A DNA stretch of 64,000 nucleotides from Candidatus Kaiserbacteria bacterium RIFCSPHIGHO2_01_FULL_46_22 (GTDB lineage: Bacteria > Patescibacteriota > Minisyncoccia > Phycocordibacterales > UBA918): positions 22,279 through 86,278 of the forward strand of contig MFKO01000002.1 in the NCBI GenBank assembly GCA_001779595.1. Reading direction: 5' to 3'. Positions within the stretch are counted from its first letter, which is position 1. Each line of letters starts with the position of its first letter. This document shows, piece after piece, positions 4,902-42,859 of the stretch. The position numbers and the translations under genes are program-made. The notes beneath the pieces were generated by a model. That model was not told the origin of the DNA, did not search any database, and was given only the letters and a program-made list of their open reading frames with translations.

Positions 4902-4915
4902 CAGAAGATAAAAAA

Positions 4916-4946
4916 CGCCCGGCCGCAAAGCGGCCGGGCGTTTTTT
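4916..4946 (+). terminator. Rho-independent terminator
   Basis: cgcccggccg-caaag-cggccgggcg perfect hairpin followed by TTTTTT. Confidence 0.8.
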
Positions 4947-9178: not shown

Positions 9179-9207
9179 TTGACAAGATTGCAATAACGGG
9201 TTAATTT
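9179..9207 (+). promoter_or_regulatory. Sigma-70-like promoter (TTGACA-17 nt-TAATTT) preceding the GC-rich cassette
   Basis: TTGACA at 9179-9184, 17-nt spacer, TAATTT at 9202-9207; a perfect 8-bp hairpin (ctttggcg-acag-cgccaaag) follows at 9214-9237 in the 5' UTR. Confidence 0.45.
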
Positions 9208-9253
9208 ATTGTCACTTTGGCGACAGGCGCCAAAGAAGATGAGGAGTTCTTCA

Positions 9254-9655
9254 ATGACCAAGACCACGCTGCCCCTGTATGCACTTTTGATCTCGACAGT
9301 ATCGTCCGTCGATGGTTCGCCCAAGTCGCTCGAGGACGCGAAGTTCGCGGCGAAACTCGCCGCCAACGGCGAAATCCCGGCCGACAAGCTGCCCGAAGTT
9401 GCGAGTGCCATCGACCAGCAGCTCGGCATGATCGCCGGCGGTGACGGCATCCATGTATGCGAAGCTCACCAGATGCTGATGCAGGCACGCGCGAGCATCA
9501 GCGGCCAGGTCGATTTCTACAAGCAGCAGCTCGATATGTTCGACGATGACAACCAGCTTTCGCTCGGTATCGACAACAAGCTCGGCGCGGCCGCCAGCAT
9601 CATGCCGACCGCCGGCATGATCCGCGATGGCGCGGTGCATCATCCCGCCGAATGA
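9254..9655 (+). CDS. Orphan 133-aa protein encoded in a GC-rich island
   Basis: GAGGAG, 7-nt spacer, ATG; strongly GC-rich third positions unlike the flanks; no family recognised. Confidence 0.4.
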   Translation: MTKTTLPLYALLISTVSSVDGSPKSLEDAKFAAKLAANGEIPADKLPEVASAIDQQLGMIAGGDGIHVCEAHQMLMQARASISGQVDFYKQQLDMFDDDNQLSLGIDNKLGAAASIMPTAGMIRDGAVHHPAE

Positions 9656-9688
9656 TCGGTCCTTGACAGCATTCGCTGTCGCATAACA

Positions 9689-9728
9689 GAGCCTTTCCCG
9701 ATACGTTATCGGGAAAGGCTCACTTTTT
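9689..9728 (+). terminator. Rho-independent terminator
   Basis: gagcctttcccgata-cgt-tatcgggaaaggctc perfect 15-bp stem followed by TTTTT. Confidence 0.8.
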
Positions 9729-9763
9729 AAGTCATACACAAACAAAGGGAGGAGGTGTTTAAA

Positions 9764-9910
9764 ATGTCGCATCCCCGTAATAAGTCCGATGGCGAACCCA
9801 ATCGGGCGAAACGGCGAAAGAAGGAGTTGAAGGAAAAGCAGGGCGGAATCCTGCAGCCGCGTGGCGCACCCGTTGGCCCAGGCAAGAAAAGAAGGGTCAG
9901 GAAGCCTTGA
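9764..9910 (+). CDS. Orphan 48-aa Lys/Arg-rich small protein (MSHPRNKSDGEPNRAKRRKKELKEKQGGILQPRGAPVGPGKKRRVRKP)
   Basis: AAAGGGAGGAGG Shine-Dalgarno 7 nt upstream of the ATG; 17 of 48 residues are K/R; flanked by exact-stem terminators on both sides; not in the ORF track because it is under 60 aa. Confidence 0.35.
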   Translation: MSHPRNKSDGEPNRAKRRKKELKEKQGGILQPRGAPVGPGKKRRVRKP

Positions 9911-9916
9911 TCCACA

Positions 9917-9952
9917 GGCCCGATCGCGATAGCGATCGGGCCATATTTTTTT
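9917..9952. terminator. Rho-independent terminator (bidirectional position)
   Basis: ggcccgatcgc-gata-gcgatcgggcc perfect stem followed by TTTTTTT. Confidence 0.8.
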
Positions 9953-10100
9953 AATCTCTTTTTTCCTTGTTAAACATTTCTCCAATAATCCCAAACATCA
10001 CACCAAGGAAAATGAAGCTCACTACATTATCTGTGAGAATGCCCATTACAGCTCCCACAAATGTACCTATAGCTATTACTGATCCCCAAGGAAGATTCAT
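9951..10100 (-). CDS. Possible small single-TM protein
   Basis: MNLPWGSVIAIGTFVGAVMGILTDNVVSFIFLGVMFGIIGEMF; weak RBS. Confidence 0.25.
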   Translation of the reverse strand: MNLPWGSVIAIGTFVGAVMGILTDNVVSFIFLGVMFGIIGEMFNKEKRD

Positions 10101-14790: not shown

Positions 14791-15144
14791 ATGTTACCTG
14801 ATTGGACAGGAAAGGCTGTGGCAGGTGCCGCAGTGGGCGCCGTAGCTGCTATGATCGTCGGCTTCGCGTGGGGTGGTTGGATGACCAGTGGGTCGGCTGC
14901 GACGATGGCGAAAGCCGAATCGCAGAAGGCAGTAGTTGCTGCCCTTACTCCGATCTGCGTCAAGCAGGCGGAAGTTGATCCGGAACGCACGGTGAAGCTC
15001 GCGGCGTTGGGCGCGTTATCTTCGTACCAGCGGAGCGACGAGCTCGTGAAGACCGGCTGGGCAACAATGCCTGGTCACGACAAGCCGGCCGACAGGGCCG
15101 TCATCTCAGCTTGTCTCAACGAACTGGCCAAGAGTCTGAAGTAG
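14791..15144 (+). CDS. Orphan 117-aa protein in GC-rich island; N-terminal Gly/Ala-rich TM helix
   Basis: AAGGAG, 7-nt spacer, ATG; GC-rich; GKAVAGAAVGAVAAMIVGFAWGGW helix; no family recognised. Confidence 0.4.
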   Translation: MLPDWTGKAVAGAAVGAVAAMIVGFAWGGWMTSGSAATMAKAESQKAVVAALTPICVKQAEVDPERTVKLAALGALSSYQRSDELVKTGWATMPGHDKPADRAVISACLNELAKSLK

Positions 15145-15163
15145 TTCAGACGAGAACACAATA

Positions 15164-15203
15164 GTGCGCCGTTCGGTTATACCGAACGGCGCATATTTTA
15201 TTT
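15164..15203. terminator. Rho-independent terminator (bidirectional position)
   Basis: gcgccgttcgg-ttata-ccgaacggcgc perfect stem followed by a T-run. Confidence 0.8.
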
Positions 15204-24938: not shown

Positions 24939-26087
24939 ATGAAAAACCAAACTTTAAGATTTGCACTAGCGGGCGGCAGTATTTGCCTGTCGATCGGTAT
25001 AGTGGCCGCTTTTATGCTGGCCATTGTTCCACTTTACGCGTCAGCCGAGACAGTGGTTCGTACTGGTGGAGATGTATCAATAAACGCCGGGCAAGTTGTA
25101 GAGAATGATTTTTATGCAGCAGGCGGAGGAGTCGTGCATTCTGGTGAAGTGCAAGGTGATATGTATGTTGCCGCTGGTTCGGTCACAGTGAATGGCGAGG
25201 TTGGTGAGGACTTGACGGTGCTCGGCGGAACGATAAACGTACATAACACTATCGGTGACGACTTGCGAGTAGTAGGCGGAGAAGCTGTTATTGCTGGAGA
25301 AGTTAAGGACGACGTTTTTGTTCTGGGTGGCAAATTACACATCCTATCTACAGCTAAGATTGGCGGTAATGTTTATTTCTATGGTGGGGAAGCAGTGATA
25401 GATGGTGAAGTATTGGGTACTGTAATGGGTCACGCAGAGCGCTTCACTATCAATTCTGCTGTTAGTGGCGTTGATGTGGTTGGCGTTTTAGAGTTGCAGG
25501 ACAATGCTTCAGTTAAAGGCGATGTTCGCTACCAAAGTGAAAAGGAAATTACTCGTTCACAGAGTGCAGCAGTATCAGGACAGATAGTTCGTGGAGACGC
25601 TGCTGATGCGGAAAGTAGTAAGAAAAGTAATTTTGGTTTGTTTGCTTTGTTGGCATGGTTTTTCACAACACTTTGTTTGTTTTTCTTGTTCCGAGGTAAG
25701 CTCGAACAACTTTGGCGTCGTCTTCGACGAGAGCCAGCAAAAAGTGGCATCTTTGGTTTGGTCGCCATTATCGCTGGGCCGATCCTAACCTTTATTTTAT
25801 TTGTGACTGTTTTAGGTGCTTGGCTCGGCTTACTTACTTTGATAGCACTGACCGCATTAATACTTGTAGGTATGCTGTTGTTGCCAATAATGTTGGGCCG
25901 ACTAACTGTTTCGATTTTCCCACAATGGGACAAAATGAATTTTGGTACGGTTTTGGTTGGTTTTATTGGTACCGCTCTTCTTTGCTCTTTGCCTTGGTTT
26001 GGAGGGTTGTTGATCTTCGCAGCTCTAGTGATAACTATGGGCGGCTTATTGCTTGTTGTGTATCGGGGCATTAAAGACCAGTTTTAG
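24939..26087 (+). CDS. Bactofilin/CcmA-like beta-helical repeat protein with C-terminal TM segments
   Basis: Repeated GGxVxVxGEVxGD units (…GDMYVAAGSVTVNGEVGEDLTVLGGTINVHNTIGDDLRVVGGEAVIAGEVKDDVFVLGG…); 4-5 C-terminal hydrophobic helices. Confidence 0.45.
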   Translation: MKNQTLRFALAGGSICLSIGIVAAFMLAIVPLYASAETVVRTGGDVSINAGQVVENDFYAAGGGVVHSGEVQGDMYVAAGSVTVNGEVGEDLTVLGGTINVHNTIGDDLRVVGGEAVIAGEVKDDVFVLGGKLHILSTAKIGGNVYFYGGEAVIDGEVLGTVMGHAERFTINSAVSGVDVVGVLELQDNASVKGDVRYQSEKEITRSQSAAVSGQIVRGDAADAESSKKSNFGLFALLAWFFTTLCLFFLFRGKLEQLWRRLRREPAKSGIFGLVAIIAGPILTFILFVTVLGAWLGLLTLIALTALILVGMLLLPIMLGRLTVSIFPQWDKMNFGTVLVGFIGTALLCSLPWFGGLLIFAALVITMGGLLLVVYRGIKDQF

Positions 26088-26212
26088 GAAGGACTGAGTG
26101 AATTGGTATCAGGTTGTTAAAGTAGCATTGACTTTAGTCATTTTTTGATTTAGTGTTCGTTACAGACCATTCCATGAGGAGTGGCAAATGCACCTAGAAA
26201 AGGAGAATATCA

Positions 26213-26593
26213 ATGGGGATACTTATTAGGAGGTCAGATGGACTTCGGATTCGTGTGACCGGCACCGGCGTGGATGGTGACCCGATCGGTGAGGTTATCG
26301 ACGATCAGGACAGCATCGTCACGGTCCGTCGCCTCAACTTGGCCGAAAGGGACGCCTACTACCGCGCCCAGAAAAGCGGGAAGATAGAAGTTGCGGTTAT
26401 CAAACACCACAACGGCGTCATCAAGACTCAGCGCTACTGGAGCCCGAGCAGCGGGAAACGTTCCGTTGCTCCGCAGAGATCTTCTCTGCGGAGCAACAAA
26501 TCCTCGACCACTTACAGGGTCGTCGAGATCGAAAGCCAGTTTTCTGTGCGGATCGGCACCAAGCACTTGGACTTTCCGAAGGGTCTCTATTGA
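26213..26593 (+). CDS. Orphan 126-aa protein in GC-rich island
   Basis: AGGAG, 7-nt spacer, ATG; GC-rich; contains a 15-bp-arm inverted repeat; no family recognised. Confidence 0.4.
   Translation: MGILIRRSDGLRIRVTGTGVDGDPIGEVIDDQDSIVTVRRLNLAERDAYYRAQKSGKIEVAVIKHHNGVIKTQRYWSPSSGKRSVAPQRSSLRSNKSSTTYRVVEIESQFSVRIGTKHLDFPKGLY
26465..26497 (+). repeat. Perfect inverted repeat inside the orphan ORF (15-bp arms, 3-nt spacer)
   Basis: gttgctccgcagaga-tct-tctctgcggagcaac. Confidence 0.8.
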
Positions 26594-26653
26594 TCTGATT
26601 CCAAGCTTACTGAGGTAAGCGCAAAGCCATTCGGTTTTTGCTACAATTATTGT

Positions 26654-27340
26654 ATGCAGAAACCGGTGGCTTTTTTTGATATAGATGGAACGGTCTTTCG
26701 CTCAAGCTTATTAATTGAGTTGGTAGAGAAGCTGGTAGAACATAAAATCTTTCCGGCCGAGGCCGAGGAATATTATTTAGAGGCTAAACAGAACTGGATT
26801 GATCGTGAAGGCGACTACGAAACATACATTGATGCAGTTGTAGAGTCTTTTCGGCATAATATCAAAGGCGTTTTTTATGGTGACTTGGCAGACATAGGTC
26901 GCGAAGTCGTTTCACTTCATAGTAAACGCGTTTACCGCTATACTCGTGACTTAATCGCTTCACTTAAAAGGGAAGGTTACTACTTAGTTGCTATATCGCA
27001 GTCGCCAAAAACTGTGCTGGATGAGTTTTGTCGTCAGTACGGTTTTGATAAGGTCTATGGCCGCATTTATGAAATTGGTCCACAGGATCGCTTTACCGGC
27101 GTGGTAGAAGGCGAGCATTTGATTGCCAACAAAGCCAATATAGTAGCCCGTGTTTTAAGTGAAGAAGGATTAACAGACAAAGGCTCAATTGGAGTTGGAG
27201 ATACTGAAGGTGATATGTCTTTGCTTGAAGCTGTAGAAAATCCGATTTGTTTCAATCCCAACCAAACGCTTTTCACTCACGCAAAACGTCGCAACTGGAA
27301 AGTTGTAGTGGAAAGAAAGGACGTGATTTATGAACTATAG
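26654..27340 (+). CDS. HAD-superfamily hydrolase (HAD-IB / SerB-like)
   Basis: FFDIDGTV motif I, GVGDTEGDMSLLE motif IV. Confidence 0.65.
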   Translation: MQKPVAFFDIDGTVFRSSLLIELVEKLVEHKIFPAEAEEYYLEAKQNWIDREGDYETYIDAVVESFRHNIKGVFYGDLADIGREVVSLHSKRVYRYTRDLIASLKREGYYLVAISQSPKTVLDEFCRQYGFDKVYGRIYEIGPQDRFTGVVEGEHLIANKANIVARVLSEEGLTDKGSIGVGDTEGDMSLLEAVENPICFNPNQTLFTHAKRRNWKVVVERKDVIYEL

Positions 27341-28593: not shown

Positions 28594-28602
28594 GGTTCAA
28601 AA

Positions 28603-28636
28603 AAGCCGCCGCGTCTGACGCGGCGGCTTTTTATTT
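28603..28636. terminator. Rho-independent terminator between convergent pilin and RNase J genes
   Basis: agccgccgcgtc-tga-cgcggcggct followed by TTTTT. Confidence 0.8.
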
Positions 28637-28644
28637 GTTTAAAT

Positions 28645-30672
28645 TTAGATACCAATCAGTACTGGAATCACCATCGGAGTCTTGTTGGTCTTTTGCATTA
28701 GGAAGCCAGAAACAGTGTTGGAAAGTTCATCCTTCACATAATCTAGATCAAGAGGATGCATTTTCTCAGTATGCTTCTCAACAGTTTTTTTGATGAGAAT
28801 GCGGGCTTCTGATAGTAGCTGTTGGTTCTCACGCAAGTAAACGAAGCCACGAGAAATAATGTCAGGCGACTTACGCAGCTTTCCGTTCTTGGTATTGACG
28901 GTCGCGATGATAACGAACATACCGTCTTCAGCGAGTGTCTGGCGGTCACGCAGCACCACTTCCTGCTTGGTGCCCACTGTGAAGCCATCTACCATCACAA
29001 GTTCGGTAGGGGCCTTTGCTTTTTGTACGGTCATCTCACCATTCTTGAAGTCGATTAGGAAGCCGTTGTCTGGTACCACAATGTTTTCGCGAGGGAAACC
29101 GTTTTCGATTGCCGTATACATATGGCTCTTCAAGTGGTAATGGTGGCCGTGTACTGGGATCAAGAATTTCGGACGAATCGCCTGACGTACCCAATTTAGT
29201 TCACCAGCATTACCGTGGCCAGAGGAGTGCACTGCCGCGCTGCGGTAGTTGATAACCTTCACATTCTTGCGGTAGATATTGTCCTTTAATTTCTGAACAG
29301 CAATCTCGTTACCGGGAATCACCGATGAAGACAACACAATAGTGTCGCGTTCAGTTAGTGTGATCTGCTTATGCTTATCGGTTGCGATTCGCATCAGAGC
29401 AGCAAATTCCTCACCCTGCGCACCAGTGGAAAGGATAACGATGCGATCTGATGGGTAGTCGCCCATATCACCAGCATTGATAAATATTTTATCGTCAACT
29501 TCCAATAGTTTTGCTGTCCGAGCGATGTCTATGTTGGTTTTGATACTGCGACCTTCCAGTACGACTTTTTTGCCGTATTTCTCGCAGGATTTTATGATCG
29601 AAGTTAGTCGCTCAAATTGTGAAGCAAACGTACCAATGATCATACGGCCGGTACTGTTTTTGATGATGGCATCAAGATTTGAAAGAACCAAACCTTCCGA
29701 TGCAGAAAATCCCTCACGGTCAGCATTGGTCGAGTCACAAATCAAAACTAGGTTGTTGTTTTTGCCCATCTTCTCCCAGCTCTCACGTTCATCCAAATCC
29801 ACTTCACCATCTTCATGAGTAAGGCGGATGTCACCAGTGATTACAATATCGCCCTGGTTGGTCTCCACAGATACTCCCATCGCGTCAGGAATTGAGTGAG
29901 TGACAGGGAAGGTTTTGATTCTCATCTTGCCAACAGTGAAAGAATCACCCTCTTTGACAACGTGCATATCAACAGGGTCTAGATGAGGAAATTCTTCTTG
30001 ACGCTTCTTGATCATTAGTGAGGTCAAGTACTGGGTGTAAATTGGCGGGTTACCAATACGTTCCATTACAAATGGAATACCACCGATGTGATCGAGGTGT
30101 CCGTGAGTGACTACTAGAGCTCGGATCTTATGCTTTCGTTCCTCGACATACTGAGTATTAGGCAAGATGTAGTTGATACCTGGAGCGTTAGATTCTTCGG
30201 ATACGAATTGAAAACCAATGTCGAAAATAACCATGTCGTCCTTTGTTTCAACCACTGTCATGTTACGACCGATTTCTTCAACGCCGCTCATCGGAATCAC
30301 ACGTACAGTCTCGTCATCAGTAATTTCTGGCAGGCGAGGAGATTTCTCGTCAGTGACAGAAATACGGTGTTGAAGAGCCGGCGCTTTGTTGGAGCGGCGT
30401 TTGTTCGCAAAGCGAGAAGGACGGCGAGAGCCACCGCGTCGCTCGCCGGCACTGTCATTGGTGCGGCCAGCAGGGCGGGGTGCGGCGCTTTTTGTTTCTG
30501 TGCTGACACCAGTAGCACTACCTGTGCCTGTACCAGCTACATTGTTGCGGGAGGGCGCACCACGATAGTTACTGCGTGAGCCAAAACGGGTTCGGCTTCC
30601 GCCGCTACCACCAAATGGACGTCGGCGACTACCGCCTGTGGCCTTTGGTCCATTATTTTGATTATTATCCAT
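28645..30672 (-). CDS. rnj: Ribonuclease J (beta-CASP metallo-beta-lactamase) with ~110-aa Arg/Gly/Ser-rich N-terminal extension
   Basis: VTHGHLDHIGGIP HxHxDH motif and beta-CASP region; N-terminus MDNNQNNGPKATGGSRRRPFGGSGGSRTRFGSRSNYRGAPSRN... Confidence 0.8.
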   Translation of the reverse strand: MDNNQNNGPKATGGSRRRPFGGSGGSRTRFGSRSNYRGAPSRNNVAGTGTGSATGVSTETKSAAPRPAGRTNDSAGERRGGSRRPSRFANKRRSNKAPALQHRISVTDEKSPRLPEITDDETVRVIPMSGVEEIGRNMTVVETKDDMVIFDIGFQFVSEESNAPGINYILPNTQYVEERKHKIRALVVTHGHLDHIGGIPFVMERIGNPPIYTQYLTSLMIKKRQEEFPHLDPVDMHVVKEGDSFTVGKMRIKTFPVTHSIPDAMGVSVETNQGDIVITGDIRLTHEDGEVDLDERESWEKMGKNNNLVLICDSTNADREGFSASEGLVLSNLDAIIKNSTGRMIIGTFASQFERLTSIIKSCEKYGKKVVLEGRSIKTNIDIARTAKLLEVDDKIFINAGDMGDYPSDRIVILSTGAQGEEFAALMRIATDKHKQITLTERDTIVLSSSVIPGNEIAVQKLKDNIYRKNVKVINYRSAAVHSSGHGNAGELNWVRQAIRPKFLIPVHGHHYHLKSHMYTAIENGFPRENIVVPDNGFLIDFKNGEMTVQKAKAPTELVMVDGFTVGTKQEVVLRDRQTLAEDGMFVIIATVNTKNGKLRKSPDIISRGFVYLRENQQLLSEARILIKKTVEKHTEKMHPLDLDYVKDELSNTVSGFLMQKTNKTPMVIPVLIGI

Positions 30673-38068: not shown

Positions 38069-38079
38069 GAAAATAAAGA

Positions 38080-38112
38080 AAACCGCCGCATCAGATGCGG
38101 CGGTTTTCTTCG
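38080..38112. terminator. Rho-independent terminator
   Basis: aaccgccgcatc-aga-tgcggcggtt followed by TTCTT. Confidence 0.75.
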
Positions 38113-42710: not shown

Positions 42711-42722
42711 TATTGGGTATTA

Positions 42723-42757
42723 AAACAGCCGGCCCCGAAGGGGCCGGCTGTTTTAAT
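42723..42757 (+). terminator. Rho-independent terminator
   Basis: acagccggcccc-gaa-ggggccggctgt followed by TTTT. Confidence 0.85.
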
Positions 42758-42859
42758 ACCCATACACAACGGCCACATTGACACTTTTTAATACTGTAAT
42801 ACTCTGGTTGGTACCAGGCAATAACGCACTGGTAACGCCAACCAAAAAGGAGTTTTTCG

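What the first reader, a model, noticed from the sequence alone, without database searches (positions are those of the whole stretch)
26195..26640. Third GC-rich cassette; orphan 126-aa ORF containing a perfect 15-bp-arm inverted repeat
Seen: AGGAG-7 nt-ATG (26213) and a GC-rich ORF. Inside the coding sequence there is gttgctccgcagaga-tct-tctctgcggagcaac at 26465-26497, which encodes ...APQRSSLRSN... A 33-nt perfect hairpin inside an ORF is unusual. It could be a recombination site, a protein-binding palindrome, or a strong mRNA hairpin that stalls ribosomes. Alternatively the ORF is not real and the locus encodes an RNA or regulatory palindrome. Only a weak hairpin (agcttac-tgag-gtaagc) follows the stop.
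Basis: seen in the sequence. Interest (0 to 1): 0.6.

Follow-up and report, generated by a model that had tools for sequence, protein, structure and literature searches.

The report
Conserved stem-loop inside small orphan gene
A small, fast-evolving gene found only in a few Kaiserbacteria (tiny uncultured bacteria) carries, inside its coding sequence, a strong hairpin that evolution has preserved by changing the encoded amino acids rather than breaking the base pairs; what the hairpin does is not known.

Summary
A 126-codon GC-rich ORF (26213-26593, +) contains a perfect 15-bp-arm, 3-nt-loop inverted repeat at 26465-26497.

- **The ORF is a real gene.** Only this frame is open in five lineages, variation is concentrated at third codon positions, and dN/dS is 0.13-0.26.
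- **The family is tiny.** I found five long-form lineages and one 60-aa short form, all Candidatus Kaiserbacteria. All sit in one slot between a DUF8173 membrane-protein gene and a HAD hydrolase gene. In relatives the same slot is empty or holds a rod-like non-coding RNA, and close relatives carry different alleles.
- **The hairpin is under selection.** It is positionally homologous in all five long forms, nine codons in register. Its 9-bp core pairs in 45 of 45 cells, and four core pairs covary through non-synonymous changes (CAG/CTG, TCC/GGA, CCC/GGG). Among the three close lineages, whose silent sites are saturated, 7 of 8 arm codons are identical, against 12 of 59 elsewhere in the gene.
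- **What it is not.** It is not a chance feature, an assembly artefact, a terminator, a frameshift signal or a repeat element.

The function is unresolved. I favour a cis-acting mRNA structure, but a DNA-level role is not excluded. There is no match in Rfam, Pfam, NCBIfam, PHROGs or PADLOC, and no significant fold-search hit.

The parts
26128..26156 (+). Putative promoter of the cassette: TTGACT (26128-26133), 17-nt spacer, TAGTGT (26151-26156). It lies shortly after the DUF8173 stop codon (26087).
   Evidence: Read from the sequence. The same TTGACT-17-TAnTnT arrangement is at the equivalent place in L001 and L002/L010. TTGACA lies upstream of the cassette in L007, L011, L014, L016 and L018. 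The consensus scan did not call it because the -10 matches only 3 of 6. It is therefore inferred, not shown.
26167..26184 (+). 5'-proximal stem-loop of the transcript: CCATTCC-atga-GGAGTGG.
   Evidence: Predicted in the minimum-free-energy fold of the transcript and in the RNAalifold consensus of three lineages, with one compensatory pair. From reading the sequences, the other cassette alleles carry a different-sequence stem-loop at the same place: L007 TCTCTCAC/GTGAGAGA, L014 GCTGGTC/GACCGGC, L018 GGTCGC/GCGACC.
26200..26206 (+). Shine-Dalgarno sequence AAGGAGA, six nt upstream of the ATG.
   Evidence: Sequence. GGAGA is conserved in L001 and L002.
26213..26593 (+). Protein-coding gene of 126 aa, basic (pI 10.2). 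The N-terminal ~60 aa are predicted as beta-beta-beta-beta-alpha. Residues 62-108 have no confident structure.
   Evidence: Homologues at 99, 62 and 60% identity, 35% (L014, E = 9e-12) and about 20% (L018). dN/dS is 0.13-0.26 among the three close lineages. Variable columns by codon position are 0.37/0.30/0.66, and only this frame is open in all five lineages. AlphaFold model.
26465..26497 (+). Perfect inverted repeat, or stem-loop, specific to this lineage: 15-bp arms and loop TCT.
26468..26494 (+). Family-wide conserved nine-codon hairpin module, GCT CCG CAG AGA TCT TCT CTG CGG AGC. Its outer 9 bp (26468-26476 with 26486-26494) pair in every lineage.
   Evidence: The in-register alignment of five lineages shows the 9-bp core paired in 45 of 45 cells, with 4 of the 9 core pairs covarying (6 of 15 pairs in the full stem). 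The covariation score is 0.36 against 0.15 in shuffles (0 of 500 reach it) and 0.07-0.18 with slid partners. In the three close lineages 7 of 8 arm codons are identical, against 12 of 59 elsewhere.
26605..26639 (+). 3' end of the unit: the weak hairpin GCTTAC-tgag-GTAAGC (26605-26620), then the terminator-like AAAGCC-attc-GGTTTTT (26623-26639).
   Evidence: Sequence and the minimum-free-energy fold. AGCCAnTnGGTTT(T/C)T is conserved in L001, L002 and L007. The terminator scan did not call it, so it is weak.
26639..26656 (+). Right border of the variable slot: the extended -10 promoter TGcTACAAT (26639-26647) of the HAD gene, seven nt before its ATG (26654).
   Evidence: TGCTACAAT-N6-ATGCAGAAAC is conserved in the window, L001, L002, L007, L010, L011 and L018. 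L014 and L016 carry variant -10 boxes. L001 and L007 become near-identical from here rightwards.

Best explanation
**What is shown.**
- The locus is a self-contained, single-gene transcription unit with its own promoter, 5' stem-loop, ribosome-binding site and weak terminator.
- It encodes a real, fast-evolving, basic 126-aa protein known only from a subclade of Candidatus Kaiserbacteria.
- It sits in a dispensable, recombination-swapped slot between a DUF8173 membrane-protein gene and a HAD-IB hydrolase gene.
- Inside the coding sequence, in a basic linker with no confidently predicted structure, lies a nine-codon module whose two ends are reverse complements in frame.
- Selection acts on the base pairing itself. 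Across five lineages the 9-bp core always pairs. Its sequence changes only by compensatory double changes, which alter the amino acids (Gln/Ser/Pro opposite Leu/Gly/Gly; Ala codon third base opposite Ser/Gly first base). Over these nine codons (aa 86-94) the peptide largely follows the nucleic-acid structure. The window's clade has extended the stem to 12-15 bp and closed the loop to 3 nt.

**What is inferred.**
- The sense strand is the one that is certainly transcribed, and the hairpin is single-copy.
- It therefore most likely acts in cis in the mRNA, as a stable internal stem (-21 to -29 kcal/mol). It could be a barrier or entry point for RNA decay and processing, and it could slow ribosomes between the N-terminal domain and the C-terminal segment. 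Either way it would set how much protein the cassette makes.
- The exact molecular role has not been demonstrated.
For: **The gene is real.**
- Homologues were found.
- dN/dS is 0.13-0.26, with silent sites saturated.
- Third-position variation dominates and the + frame alone is open in all five lineages.

**The hairpin is selected.**
- In three lineages at about 60% aa identity, 7 of 8 arm codons are identical, against 12 of 59 elsewhere (Fisher p = 0.0004).
- The only arm change is CTG to TTG. By my enumeration it is one of just 3 of the 21 possible synonymous changes that keep an RNA pair (G-U).
- The loop codon is free (TCT/AAA/TTC).
- In the five-lineage, in-register alignment the core is paired in 45 of 45 cells. 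Of the 15 stem pairs, 6 have changes on both sides. The covariation score is 0.36, against 0.15 in shuffles and 0.07-0.18 in slid controls.
- Every lineage folds the hairpin at -21 to -29 kcal/mol, z = -4.1 to -9.0.
- Synonymous shuffles reach the observed stem in 0-13 of 1000 for the four all-Watson-Crick stems. L001 is not comparable because its stem contains a G-U.

**It is single-copy.**

**The slot is variable.**
- Empty in L012, L020 and L022.
- An RNA in L011 and L016.
- The short form in L007.
- Long forms elsewhere.
- L001 and L007 have HAD genes 97% identical but carry different alleles.

**Transcript architecture.**
Against: - **No direct evidence for RNA over DNA.** Sense and antisense hairpins are about equally stable. 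Only one G-U pair in the core (L001) favours the sense RNA.
- **No precedent located.** I found none for a decay or translation function of a hairpin about 250 nt into a bacterial coding sequence of this kind. No expression data are available.
- **Protein constraint also operates here.** Ala86, Pro87, Ser91 and Arg93 are invariant, so part of the conservation could be protein-level.
- **Small sample.** There are only five independent lineages, and the alignment was centred on the hairpin.
- **A mutational route exists.** Template switching can create and re-perfect hairpins in single events (PMC8794818), which weakens the link from covariation to selection.
Confidence: 0.6

Rival explanations
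1. DNA-level element. The palindrome would be a binding site for a dimeric protein (possibly the cassette's own basic product), a cruciform, or a site used in recombination or cassette exchange.
For: - The outermost bases GCnCCG...CGGnGC are invariant and at fixed spacing in all five lineages.
- The central bases are variable, as in many operators.
- The slot is exchanged between genomes.
- The protein is basic, with pI 10.2 overall and 10.8 for the C-terminal half.
- Strand energetics do not favour the sense RNA.
Against: - Inner stem positions covary among three different sequences while keeping complementarity. Base pairing predicts this; recognition of half-sites does not.
- The loop grows from 3 to 9 nt in L014 and L018. 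From general knowledge, this is unfavourable for cruciform extrusion.
- The breakpoints between L001 and L007 lie at the end of the DUF8173 gene and at the HAD promoter, not at the hairpin.
- No second copy was found. None of the neighbouring proteins scanned against Pfam is a recombinase.
- The 3-nt odd spacer does not fit Xer or invertase sites (general knowledge).
Confidence: 0.15
2. The hairpin has no function. It would be created and kept perfect by replication template switching between the arms (quasi-palindrome correction) and tolerated because it lies in a permissive linker.
For: - Template switching is documented to create hairpins and to produce apparent compensatory changes in one event (PMC8794818).
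- The window's clade has a longer, perfect stem (12-15 bp) than L014 and L018 (9-11 bp), as expected from arm-to-arm copying.
- The region has no confident predicted structure and tolerates radical residue changes.
Against: - The module is retained at the same codons in five lineages whose silent sites are saturated and whose proteins are only 20-62% identical.
- Without selection, point mutations and indels, which are frequent right next to it, should have destroyed it in at least some lineages.
- Each correction event would impose amino-acid changes on a gene that is under purifying selection.
Confidence: 0.1
3. Recoding signal. The hairpin would stimulate programmed ribosomal frameshifting, as in dnaX or IS3-family elements.
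For: In the window a GGGAAAC heptamer (26453-26459) lies 5 nt upstream of the 15-bp stem. That is the classical spacing for -1 frameshifting.
Against: - The heptamer is out of phase. The zero frame reads GGG AAA C, not G GGA AAC.
- It is absent from L001, L002, L014 and L018.
- The other frames are interrupted by 1-6 stops in every lineage.
Confidence: 0.03
4. Protein-level motif only, or chance. Selection for the peptide AP...S.R, plus GC-rich codon usage, would happen to give a palindrome.
For: Ala86, Pro87, Ser91 and Arg93 are invariant across the family. The gene is GC3-rich.
Against: - Given the peptide APQR-x-SLRS, only 8 of 248,832 codon combinations pair perfectly (my enumeration from the genetic code).
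- Synonymous shuffles almost never reproduce the stem.
- The residues at module positions 3, 4 and 7 change radically (Q/S/P, R/S/H, L/G/G) while complementarity at positions 3 and 7 is kept.
Confidence: 0.02
5. The ORF is spurious and the locus is a non-coding RNA or a fossil terminator. Alternatively, the palindrome is an assembly artefact.
For: - In relatives the same slot holds a rod-like non-coding RNA.
- The hairpin has the same geometry as this genome's intrinsic terminators, a perfect stem with a 3-nt loop.
- The whole transcript is more structured than its shuffles, z = -5.3.
Against: - The codon-position pattern, the single open frame and dN/dS below 1 all show translation-level selection.
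- No T-run follows the hairpin on either strand.
- The excess stability of the transcript, about 32 kcal/mol, is of the same order as the hairpin's own stability of about 29 kcal/mol (my reading).
- The hairpin is found in independent assemblies from several projects.
Confidence: 0.02

Closest known systems
Conserved cis-acting stem-loops embedded in coding sequences (for example the bacterial SECIS hairpin, or the frameshift-stimulating hairpins of dnaX and IS3-family elements)
   Same: A stable hairpin is translated as part of the ORF. It is maintained by selection on pairing on top of coding constraint, so synonymous sites are frozen.
   Different: There is no in-frame UGA upstream, so it is not a SECIS. 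There is no conserved, in-phase slippery heptamer and no open alternative frame, so it is not a frameshift site. No Rfam family matches.
Intrinsic (Rho-independent) terminators of the same genome
   Same: The geometry is identical: perfect GC-rich stems of 13-23 bp with loops of 1-7 nt, mostly 3 nt, for example 9689-9721, 15165-15193 and 28600-28632.
   Different: Those are intergenic and followed by a T-run. This hairpin is 96 nt upstream of the stop codon and has no T-run on either strand.
Rickettsia palindromic elements and other palindromic repeats (MITEs) inserted in frame into genes (from my own knowledge; reviewed in PMC10969869, listed but not read)
   Same: A palindromic DNA segment is translated in frame within a protein, in a permissive region, in a reduced-genome bacterium.
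   Different: - Those elements are 100-150 bp repeats present in many copies, and they are polymorphic insertions.
- This module is 27-33 nt and single-copy.
- It is present in every long-form family member, and it evolves by compensatory change.
Hairpins created and maintained by replication template switching (PMC8794818)
   Same: Perfect stems, stem extension and apparent compensatory double changes are all seen here.
   Different: That is a mutational mechanism, not a function. It does not by itself explain retention at the same codons across saturated divergence in a gene under purifying selection.
mRNA stabiliser stem-loops (5'-terminal stem-loops and stabilising hairpins that block exonucleases; general knowledge)
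   Same: The cassette mRNA has a 5'-proximal stem-loop in every allele. An RNase J gene lies nearby, at 28645-30672. The internal stem is strong enough to impede exonucleases.
   Different: Known stabilisers sit in untranslated regions or between cistrons. An internal coding-sequence position has no established stabiliser role. This is untested here.
Integron gene cassettes with attC sites
   Same: A small, compositionally odd gene occupies a variable slot and is associated with an inverted repeat.
   Different: - The cassette has its own promoter.
- The repeat is inside the ORF, not at the 3' end.
- It is perfect and short, not an imperfect 57-141-nt attC.
- The slot holds one unit, not an array.
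- None of the neighbouring proteins scanned against Pfam is an integrase.
- Exchange appears to go through flanking homology.

Membership tests
Intrinsic terminator | GC-rich stem-loop immediately followed by a run of T/U | tested here: not met
   The stem is followed by AACAAATCC on the + strand and GGAACGTTTCC on the - strand. The terminator scan does not call it.
Intrinsic terminator | Located downstream of a stop codon, at the end of a transcription unit | tested here: not met
   The hairpin ends at 26497 and the stop codon is at 26591-26593.
-1 programmed ribosomal frameshift site | In-phase slippery heptamer X XXY YYZ, 5-9 nt upstream of the structure, conserved among homologues | tested here: not met
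   The window's GGGAAAC is read as GGG AAA C. It is absent from L001, L002, L014 and L018.
-1 programmed ribosomal frameshift site | Open alternative frame downstream | tested here: not met
   The +1 and +2 frames contain 1-6 stops in each lineage.
Bacterial SECIS element | In-frame UGA immediately 5' of the hairpin | tested here: not met
   The ORF has no internal stop. The codons before the stem are CGT TCC GTT.
Palindromic repeat elements (RPE, REP, MITE) | Multiple dispersed copies in the genome | tested here: not met
   The only matches to the arm in the 64 kb are the hairpin's own two arms. The covariance model finds no other copy in the window or in 12 related loci. Only 64 kb of this genome was available.
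Palindromic repeat elements (RPE, REP, MITE) | Presence/absence polymorphism of the insert among orthologous genes | tested here: not met
   All five long-form lineages carry the module at the same nine codons.
Integron cassette / attC | Imperfect attC palindrome at the 3' end of a promoterless ORF, with an integrase nearby | tested here: not met
   The repeat is inside the ORF. The unit has its own promoter-like site and ribosome-binding site. None of the neighbouring proteins scanned against Pfam is an integrase.
IS200/IS605-type element | HUH/Y1 transposase or TnpB, with subterminal hairpins | tested here: not met
   No Pfam, NCBIfam or PHROG match for the protein. The His-His pair at residues 65-66 is not conserved. 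The unit is single-copy and always at the same locus.
Any Rfam RNA family | Score at or above the gathering threshold | tested here: not met
   Only a tRNA elsewhere in the window reaches threshold. In 26080-26660 the best hits score about 18 bits, E of 0.5 or more, against unrelated snoRNA and miRNA models.
Any curated protein family (Pfam, NCBIfam, PHROGs, PADLOC) or known fold | Significant profile or structural match | tested here: not met
   [not shown]
Selected RNA/DNA secondary structure (general criterion) | Base pairing maintained by compensatory substitutions across homologues, above shuffled and shifted controls | tested here: met
   The core is paired in 45 of 45 cells. Six pairs have double changes. 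The covariation score is 0.36, against 0.15 (0 of 500 shuffles reach it) and 0.07-0.18 with slid partners.
RNA-level (as opposed to DNA-level) structure | G-U pairs tolerated on one strand only, with a strand-specific stability advantage | tested here: inconclusive
   There is one G-U pair in the L001 core on the sense strand. The antisense fold is equally or more stable in 4 of 5 lineages.

The most novel reading that the evidence does not exclude
The cassette would be a previously unrecognised kind of self-contained RNA-protein module that circulates among Kaiserbacteria by homologous replacement of one slot. The in-frame hairpin would be the essential recognition or processing site, bound or cut by the cassette's own basic protein or by a host factor. 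The module as a whole could be, for example, an addiction, defence or regulatory unit. The alternative occupants of the slot (the short protein form and the rod-like RNA) would be functional equivalents.
Probability: 0.1. Interest if true: 0.75.

Novelty: new member of a known kind. Interest (0 to 1): 0.5.

Why it matters
- **A clean natural example.** Selection on a nucleic-acid structure here overrides the amino-acid sequence of a bacterial protein. The stem is kept by non-synonymous compensatory changes. Such cases are well known in RNA viruses but rarely documented in cellular genes.
- **A tractable system.** The locus is small: one promoter, one 126-codon gene and one hairpin. It could be used to ask what internal coding-sequence stem-loops do in Candidate Phyla Radiation (CPR) bacteria, whose post-transcriptional control is essentially unexplored.
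- **A hypervariable slot.** The position can be empty, hold an RNA, or hold a short or long protein. It may be useful as a marker of recombination among Kaiserbacteria.
- **Limits.** The family is tiny, the organism is uncultured and the function is unknown. The immediate impact is therefore modest.

Tried and rejected
**Searches for more relatives**
- A scan of GTDB species genomes with the protein alignment found nothing.
- The palindrome pattern hit GTDB only in two unrelated intergenic, terminator-like hairpins, in Brevibacterium and a Eubacteriales MAG.
- IMG/VR gave nothing for the protein or for the palindrome.
- The JGI metagenome scan returned only copies of the L002 lineage.
- A full HMMER scan of 1.84 billion cluster representatives returned only the family itself and a spurious 1317-aa translated tandem repeat, P0004.
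- A profile search that included the short form added only the short form's own cluster, P0125.
- The divergent long forms L014 and L018 were found only by walking the synteny through HAD-gene neighbours.

**Family and fold searches**
- Pfam, PHROGs, NCBIfam, PADLOC and Rfam gave no matches.

**Ideas tested and dropped**
- Frameshifting via GGGAAAC: out of phase and not conserved.
- An internal translation start after the GGAG in the 3' arm: no conserved start codon.
- A diversity-generating-retroelement-style or other repeat partner elsewhere in the window: none.
- A shared feature with the other two GC-rich cassettes: their perfect hairpins are ordinary terminators with T-runs.
- Pairing between the ribosome-binding site or start region and the 3' end of the ORF: suggested for three lineages. 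On inspection of the sequences it is not evident in L014 or L018, so it was not pursued.
- Sense-versus-antisense energetics to decide the strand: uninformative.
- Within-lineage polymorphism: the paired assemblies are identical across the cassette.
- The identity of the rod-like RNA in L011 and L016: no Rfam match, and the two sequences are too divergent to align.
Full report
**1. Observation**

The features described are present at the stated coordinates.
- AAGGAGA lies at 26200-26206, six nt before the ATG at 26213.
- The ORF 26213-26593 encodes 126 aa.
- The arms 26465-26479 and 26483-26497 form a perfect inverted repeat around a TCT loop.
The 45-nt core folds at -28.9 kcal/mol, z = -9.0.
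- GC rises to 0.54-0.61 inside the ORF, against 0.37-0.46 around it. The excess is mainly at third codon positions: GC3 is 0.69, against 0.38-0.45 in the neighbours.
- GroEL and an elongation-factor-like GTPase gene in the window have ordinary GC3 of 0.44-0.47. Expression-linked codon bias is therefore not the explanation.
- The arm sequence occurs nowhere else in the 64 kb, and no part of the cassette is repeated.

**2. The ORF is a real gene with a very small family**

- The 5.8-billion-protein search gave three clusters, at 99, 62 and 60% identity.
- The full HMMER scan of 1.84 billion representatives added only a spurious translated repeat.
- GTDB genomes and IMG/VR gave nothing.
- The neighbouring HAD hydrolase is 93% identical to that of Candidatus Kaiserbacteria bacterium RIFOXYB1_FULL_46_14. 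The organism is therefore a Kaiserbacterium, a member of the Candidate Phyla Radiation (CPR).
- Walking the synteny through HAD-gene neighbours uncovered two more divergent long forms: L014 (108 aa, 35% identity, E = 9e-12) and L018 (126 aa, about 20% identity).
- It also uncovered a 60-aa short form, L007, which shares only the N-terminal ~45 residues (E = 0.002).
- Among the window, L001 and L002, silent sites are saturated in the flanking genes and nearly so in the ORF (pS 0.58-0.79). ORF dN/dS is 0.13-0.26, against 0.01-0.06 in the neighbours.
- Variable columns by codon position are 37%, 30% and 66%. Only the + frame is open in all five lineages.
- The antisense 110-aa ORF and the overlapping 75-aa ORF are therefore by-products of GC-rich coding sequence.
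- The protein is basic (pI 10.2). It has a roughly neutral N-terminal half and a very basic C-terminal half.
- AlphaFold gives a moderately confident four-strand-plus-helix N-terminal domain and no confident structure for residues 62-108.
- No profile library or fold search gives a significant match.

**3. The hairpin is under selection as a structure**

*Close lineages.*
- In the three lineages at about 60% aa identity, the 12-nt arms GCTCCGCAGAGA and TCT(C/T)TGCGGAGC are conserved base for base. The loop codon is free: TCT, AAA or TTC.
- Of 67 invariant, degenerate amino-acid columns, only 19 keep the same codon in all three lineages. Seven of those 19 are among the eight arm codons. That is 7 of 8, against 12 of 59 elsewhere (Fisher p = 0.0004).
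- The single arm difference is CTG to TTG. It is synonymous and gives a G-U pair. By enumeration, only 3 of the 21 possible synonymous single changes in the arms would keep an RNA pair.
- At the base of the stem, the window's T-A pair is replaced by C-G in L002.

*Divergent lineages.* This is the decisive evidence. The module is nine codons long in every lineage and follows a shared CGT-TNC in four of the five:

| Lineage | Nine-codon module |
|---|---|
| window | GCT CCG CAG AGA TCT TCT CTG CGG AGC |
| L014 | GCC CCG TCC AGC CGA TCC GGA CGG GGC |
| L018 | GCC CCG CCC CAC AGA TCA GGG CGG GGC |

- MAFFT aligns the proteins the same way without being guided.
- On the 45-column alignment, the 9-bp core pairs in 45 of 45 cells, and four of the nine core pairs covary.
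- Over the 15-pair stem, six pairs show changes on both sides. The covariation score is 0.36, against 0.15 for shuffles (0 of 500 reach it) and 0.07-0.18 with the partners slid by 1-3 columns.
- The compensations are non-synonymous: Gln/Ser/Pro opposite Leu/Gly/Gly, and the Ala third base opposite the Ser/Gly first base. Here the peptide gives way to the pairing.
- Every lineage folds the hairpin at -21 to -29 kcal/mol, z = -4.1 to -9.0.
- Synonymous-codon shuffles reach the observed perfect stem in 0, 2, 2 and 13 of 1000 trials for the window, L002, L014 and L018.
- The window's clade has lengthened the stem to 12-15 bp and closed the loop from 9 to 3 nt.

**4. Context: a hypervariable slot**

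- In all the loci examined, the gene order glycoside hydrolase, DUF8173 membrane protein, [slot], HAD-IB hydrolase, MFS transporter, RNase J is conserved.
- Some relatives carry a small PspC-domain gene between HAD and MFS. Some, like the window, carry a pilin-like gene before RNase J.
- The slot has four states:

| State | Where seen |
|---|---|
| Long form with the hairpin | window, L001, L002/L005/L006/L010, L014/L015, L018/L019 |
| 60-aa short form | L007-L009 |
| About 150-nt rod-like RNA with its own promoter and terminator, no ORF, no Rfam match | L011, L016/L017 |
| Essentially empty, 10-36 nt | L012/L013, L020, L022 |

- Each occupant starts with a TTGAC(A/T) -35-like box just after the DUF8173 stop, followed by a 5'-proximal stem-loop of different sequence.
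- Most loci end at the extended -10 box TGcTACAAT, which sits seven nt before the HAD ATG. L014 and L016 have variant -10 boxes.
- L001 (long form) and L007 (short form) have HAD genes 97% identical (dS 0.46) and MFS genes 98% identical (dS 0.45). Their slot contents are nevertheless only distantly related. Similarity breaks down in the last ~15 codons of the DUF8173 gene and resumes at the HAD promoter.
- Alleles of the slot are therefore exchanged by recombination in the flanks.
- The occupant is GC-richer than its flank in every lineage, the RNA occupants included. The persistence of this excess GC3 despite saturated silent divergence is not explained.

**5. What it is not**

- **Terminator.** There is no T-run on either strand and the stop codon is 96 nt further on. 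The perfect hairpins of the other two GC-rich cassettes (9689-9721 and 15165-15193) are ordinary terminators with T-runs.
- **Frameshift site.** GGGAAAC at 26453-26459 has the right spacing but the wrong phase. It is absent from the other lineages, and the other frames are closed.
- **SECIS.** There is no UGA upstream.
- **Repeat element.** It is single-copy in the window and the loci and is never absent from a long-form gene.
- **Integron, IS200/IS605, Xer or invertase site.** It does not fit any of these (see the membership table).
- **Matches elsewhere.** The two exact matches to the palindrome in 596 Gb of GTDB genomes are unrelated intergenic, terminator-like hairpins.

**6. Mechanism**

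*Shown:* a nucleic-acid stem is maintained by selection inside a translated, purifying-selected gene.

*Inferred:* it acts in the mRNA. The reasons are:
- The sense strand is the one with a promoter, a ribosome-binding site and coding constraint.
- No promoter-like site was found on the opposite strand.
- The one non-Watson-Crick core pair is a sense-strand G-U.
- The inner stem covaries freely, which a protein reading duplex half-sites would not allow.
- The 9-nt spacer in L014 and L018 is, from general knowledge, poor for cruciform extrusion.

The cassette mRNA has a 5' stem-loop in every allele and only a weak terminator. The organism encodes RNase J close by.

My best guess is that the internal stem shapes the decay or processing of the mRNA, slows ribosomes between the N-terminal domain and the C-terminal segment, or does both. 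That would tune the output of a strongly promoted, dispensable gene.

This step is not demonstrated. Sense and antisense stabilities do not discriminate between the strands. A DNA-level role, such as binding by the basic product, remains possible. Template switching during replication (PMC8794818) may explain how the stem was extended and kept perfect. I doubt that it suffices to explain retention across this much divergence.

**7. Verdict**

The 'ORF not real' alternative is rejected.
- The element belongs to no described family. It is a new example of a known kind, a selected stem-loop embedded in coding sequence.
- It stands out for how clearly the peptide is subordinated to the stem, and for its setting in a recombining slot of a CPR genome.
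- Interest is moderate. The evolutionary signal is clean and unusual, but the function is unknown, the family is tiny and the host is uncultured.

Noticed in passing
L011:2742-2900 and L016:1260-1400 (same slot as window 26088-26653): In two relatives the slot holds no ORF. It holds a GC-rich RNA of about 150 nt that folds into a long rod closed by a 12-13-bp terminal stem (GGTCTGGTCC.../...GGGCCAGACC). It has its own TTGAC-type promoter and a strong terminator. The fold z-scores are -4.5 and -2.6. No Rfam family matches. Its shape recalls 6S-like RNAs, but this was not established.
   Followed up: partly
window 26639-26656 (also L001, L002, L007, L010-L012, L018): The HAD gene has an extended -10 box (TGcTACAAT) ending seven nt before its ATG, and no Shine-Dalgarno sequence. 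This suggests a leaderless mRNA. The arrangement is conserved across most of the loci examined, including the empty slot L012 (TGgTAAAAT, seven nt, ATG).
   Followed up: no
window 9180-9960: The first GC-rich cassette is two small + strand genes: 9255-9655 (133 aa) and 9765-9910 (48 aa, extremely basic). They are separated by the perfect hairpin 9689-9721 followed by a T-run, and the unit ends with a second terminator at about 9919-9950. The 247-aa ORF on the - strand (9251-9994) looks spurious. Neither protein was tested on its own. The - strand ORF had no significant Pfam or PHROG match.
   Followed up: partly
window 14791-15193: The second GC-rich cassette is a 117-aa ORF (GC 0.60, GC3 0.67) that starts with a hydrophobic Gly/Ala-rich segment. 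It has no Pfam or PHROG match. It is followed by a perfect 13-bp, 3-nt-loop terminator (15165-15193) with a T-run.
   Followed up: partly
window, whole: Intrinsic terminators in this genome are typically perfect stems of 13-23 bp with loops of 1-7 nt, mostly 3 nt, flanked by A-runs and T-runs. Examples are 4910-4946, 28600-28632, 38076-38110 and 42714-42762. Many look bidirectional.
   Followed up: no
window 26453-26459: A GGGAAAC heptamer lies 5 nt upstream of the hairpin, a textbook frameshift spacing. It is out of phase with the ORF and absent from relatives, so it is judged coincidental.
   Followed up: yes
window 26202-26208 and 26582-26588 (alignment A9 columns 67-73 with 450-456): RNAalifold pairs the Shine-Dalgarno region (GGAGAAT here, GGAGACC in L001 and L002) with GGTCTCT near the stop codon in the window, L001 and L002. 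The window's own minimum-free-energy fold instead pairs the start-codon region 26209-26220 with 26581-26594. Either pairing could occlude translation initiation. The 3' partner also encodes the conserved C-terminal KGLY, so conservation alone is not evidence. By eye the pairing is not evident in L014 or L018.
   Followed up: partly
[not shown]
   Followed up: partly
L014:2177-2413, L016:2206-2400, L018:2205-2423: Some relatives carry an extra small PspC-domain gene between the HAD and MFS genes. It is absent from the window, so this is a second variable position in the same neighbourhood.
   Followed up: no
L010:2518-2943 and L002:2052-2462: In the L002 lineage the conserved 5' leader is open in frame with the ORF, so gene callers report 141- or 136-aa products. 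In the window the same leader contains a seven-codon upstream ORF (26175-26198) ending in TAG. In L001 a 15-codon upstream ORF overlaps the start codon (ATGA). The leader is conserved as nucleotides, not as protein.
   Followed up: partly
all long- and short-form cassettes: Cassette GC3 exceeds that of the adjacent HAD gene in every lineage, by 0.05 to 0.31, even though silent sites are saturated between lineages. This is unexplained. It could reflect selection on RNA stability or repeated import from GC-richer Kaiserbacteria.
   Followed up: partly
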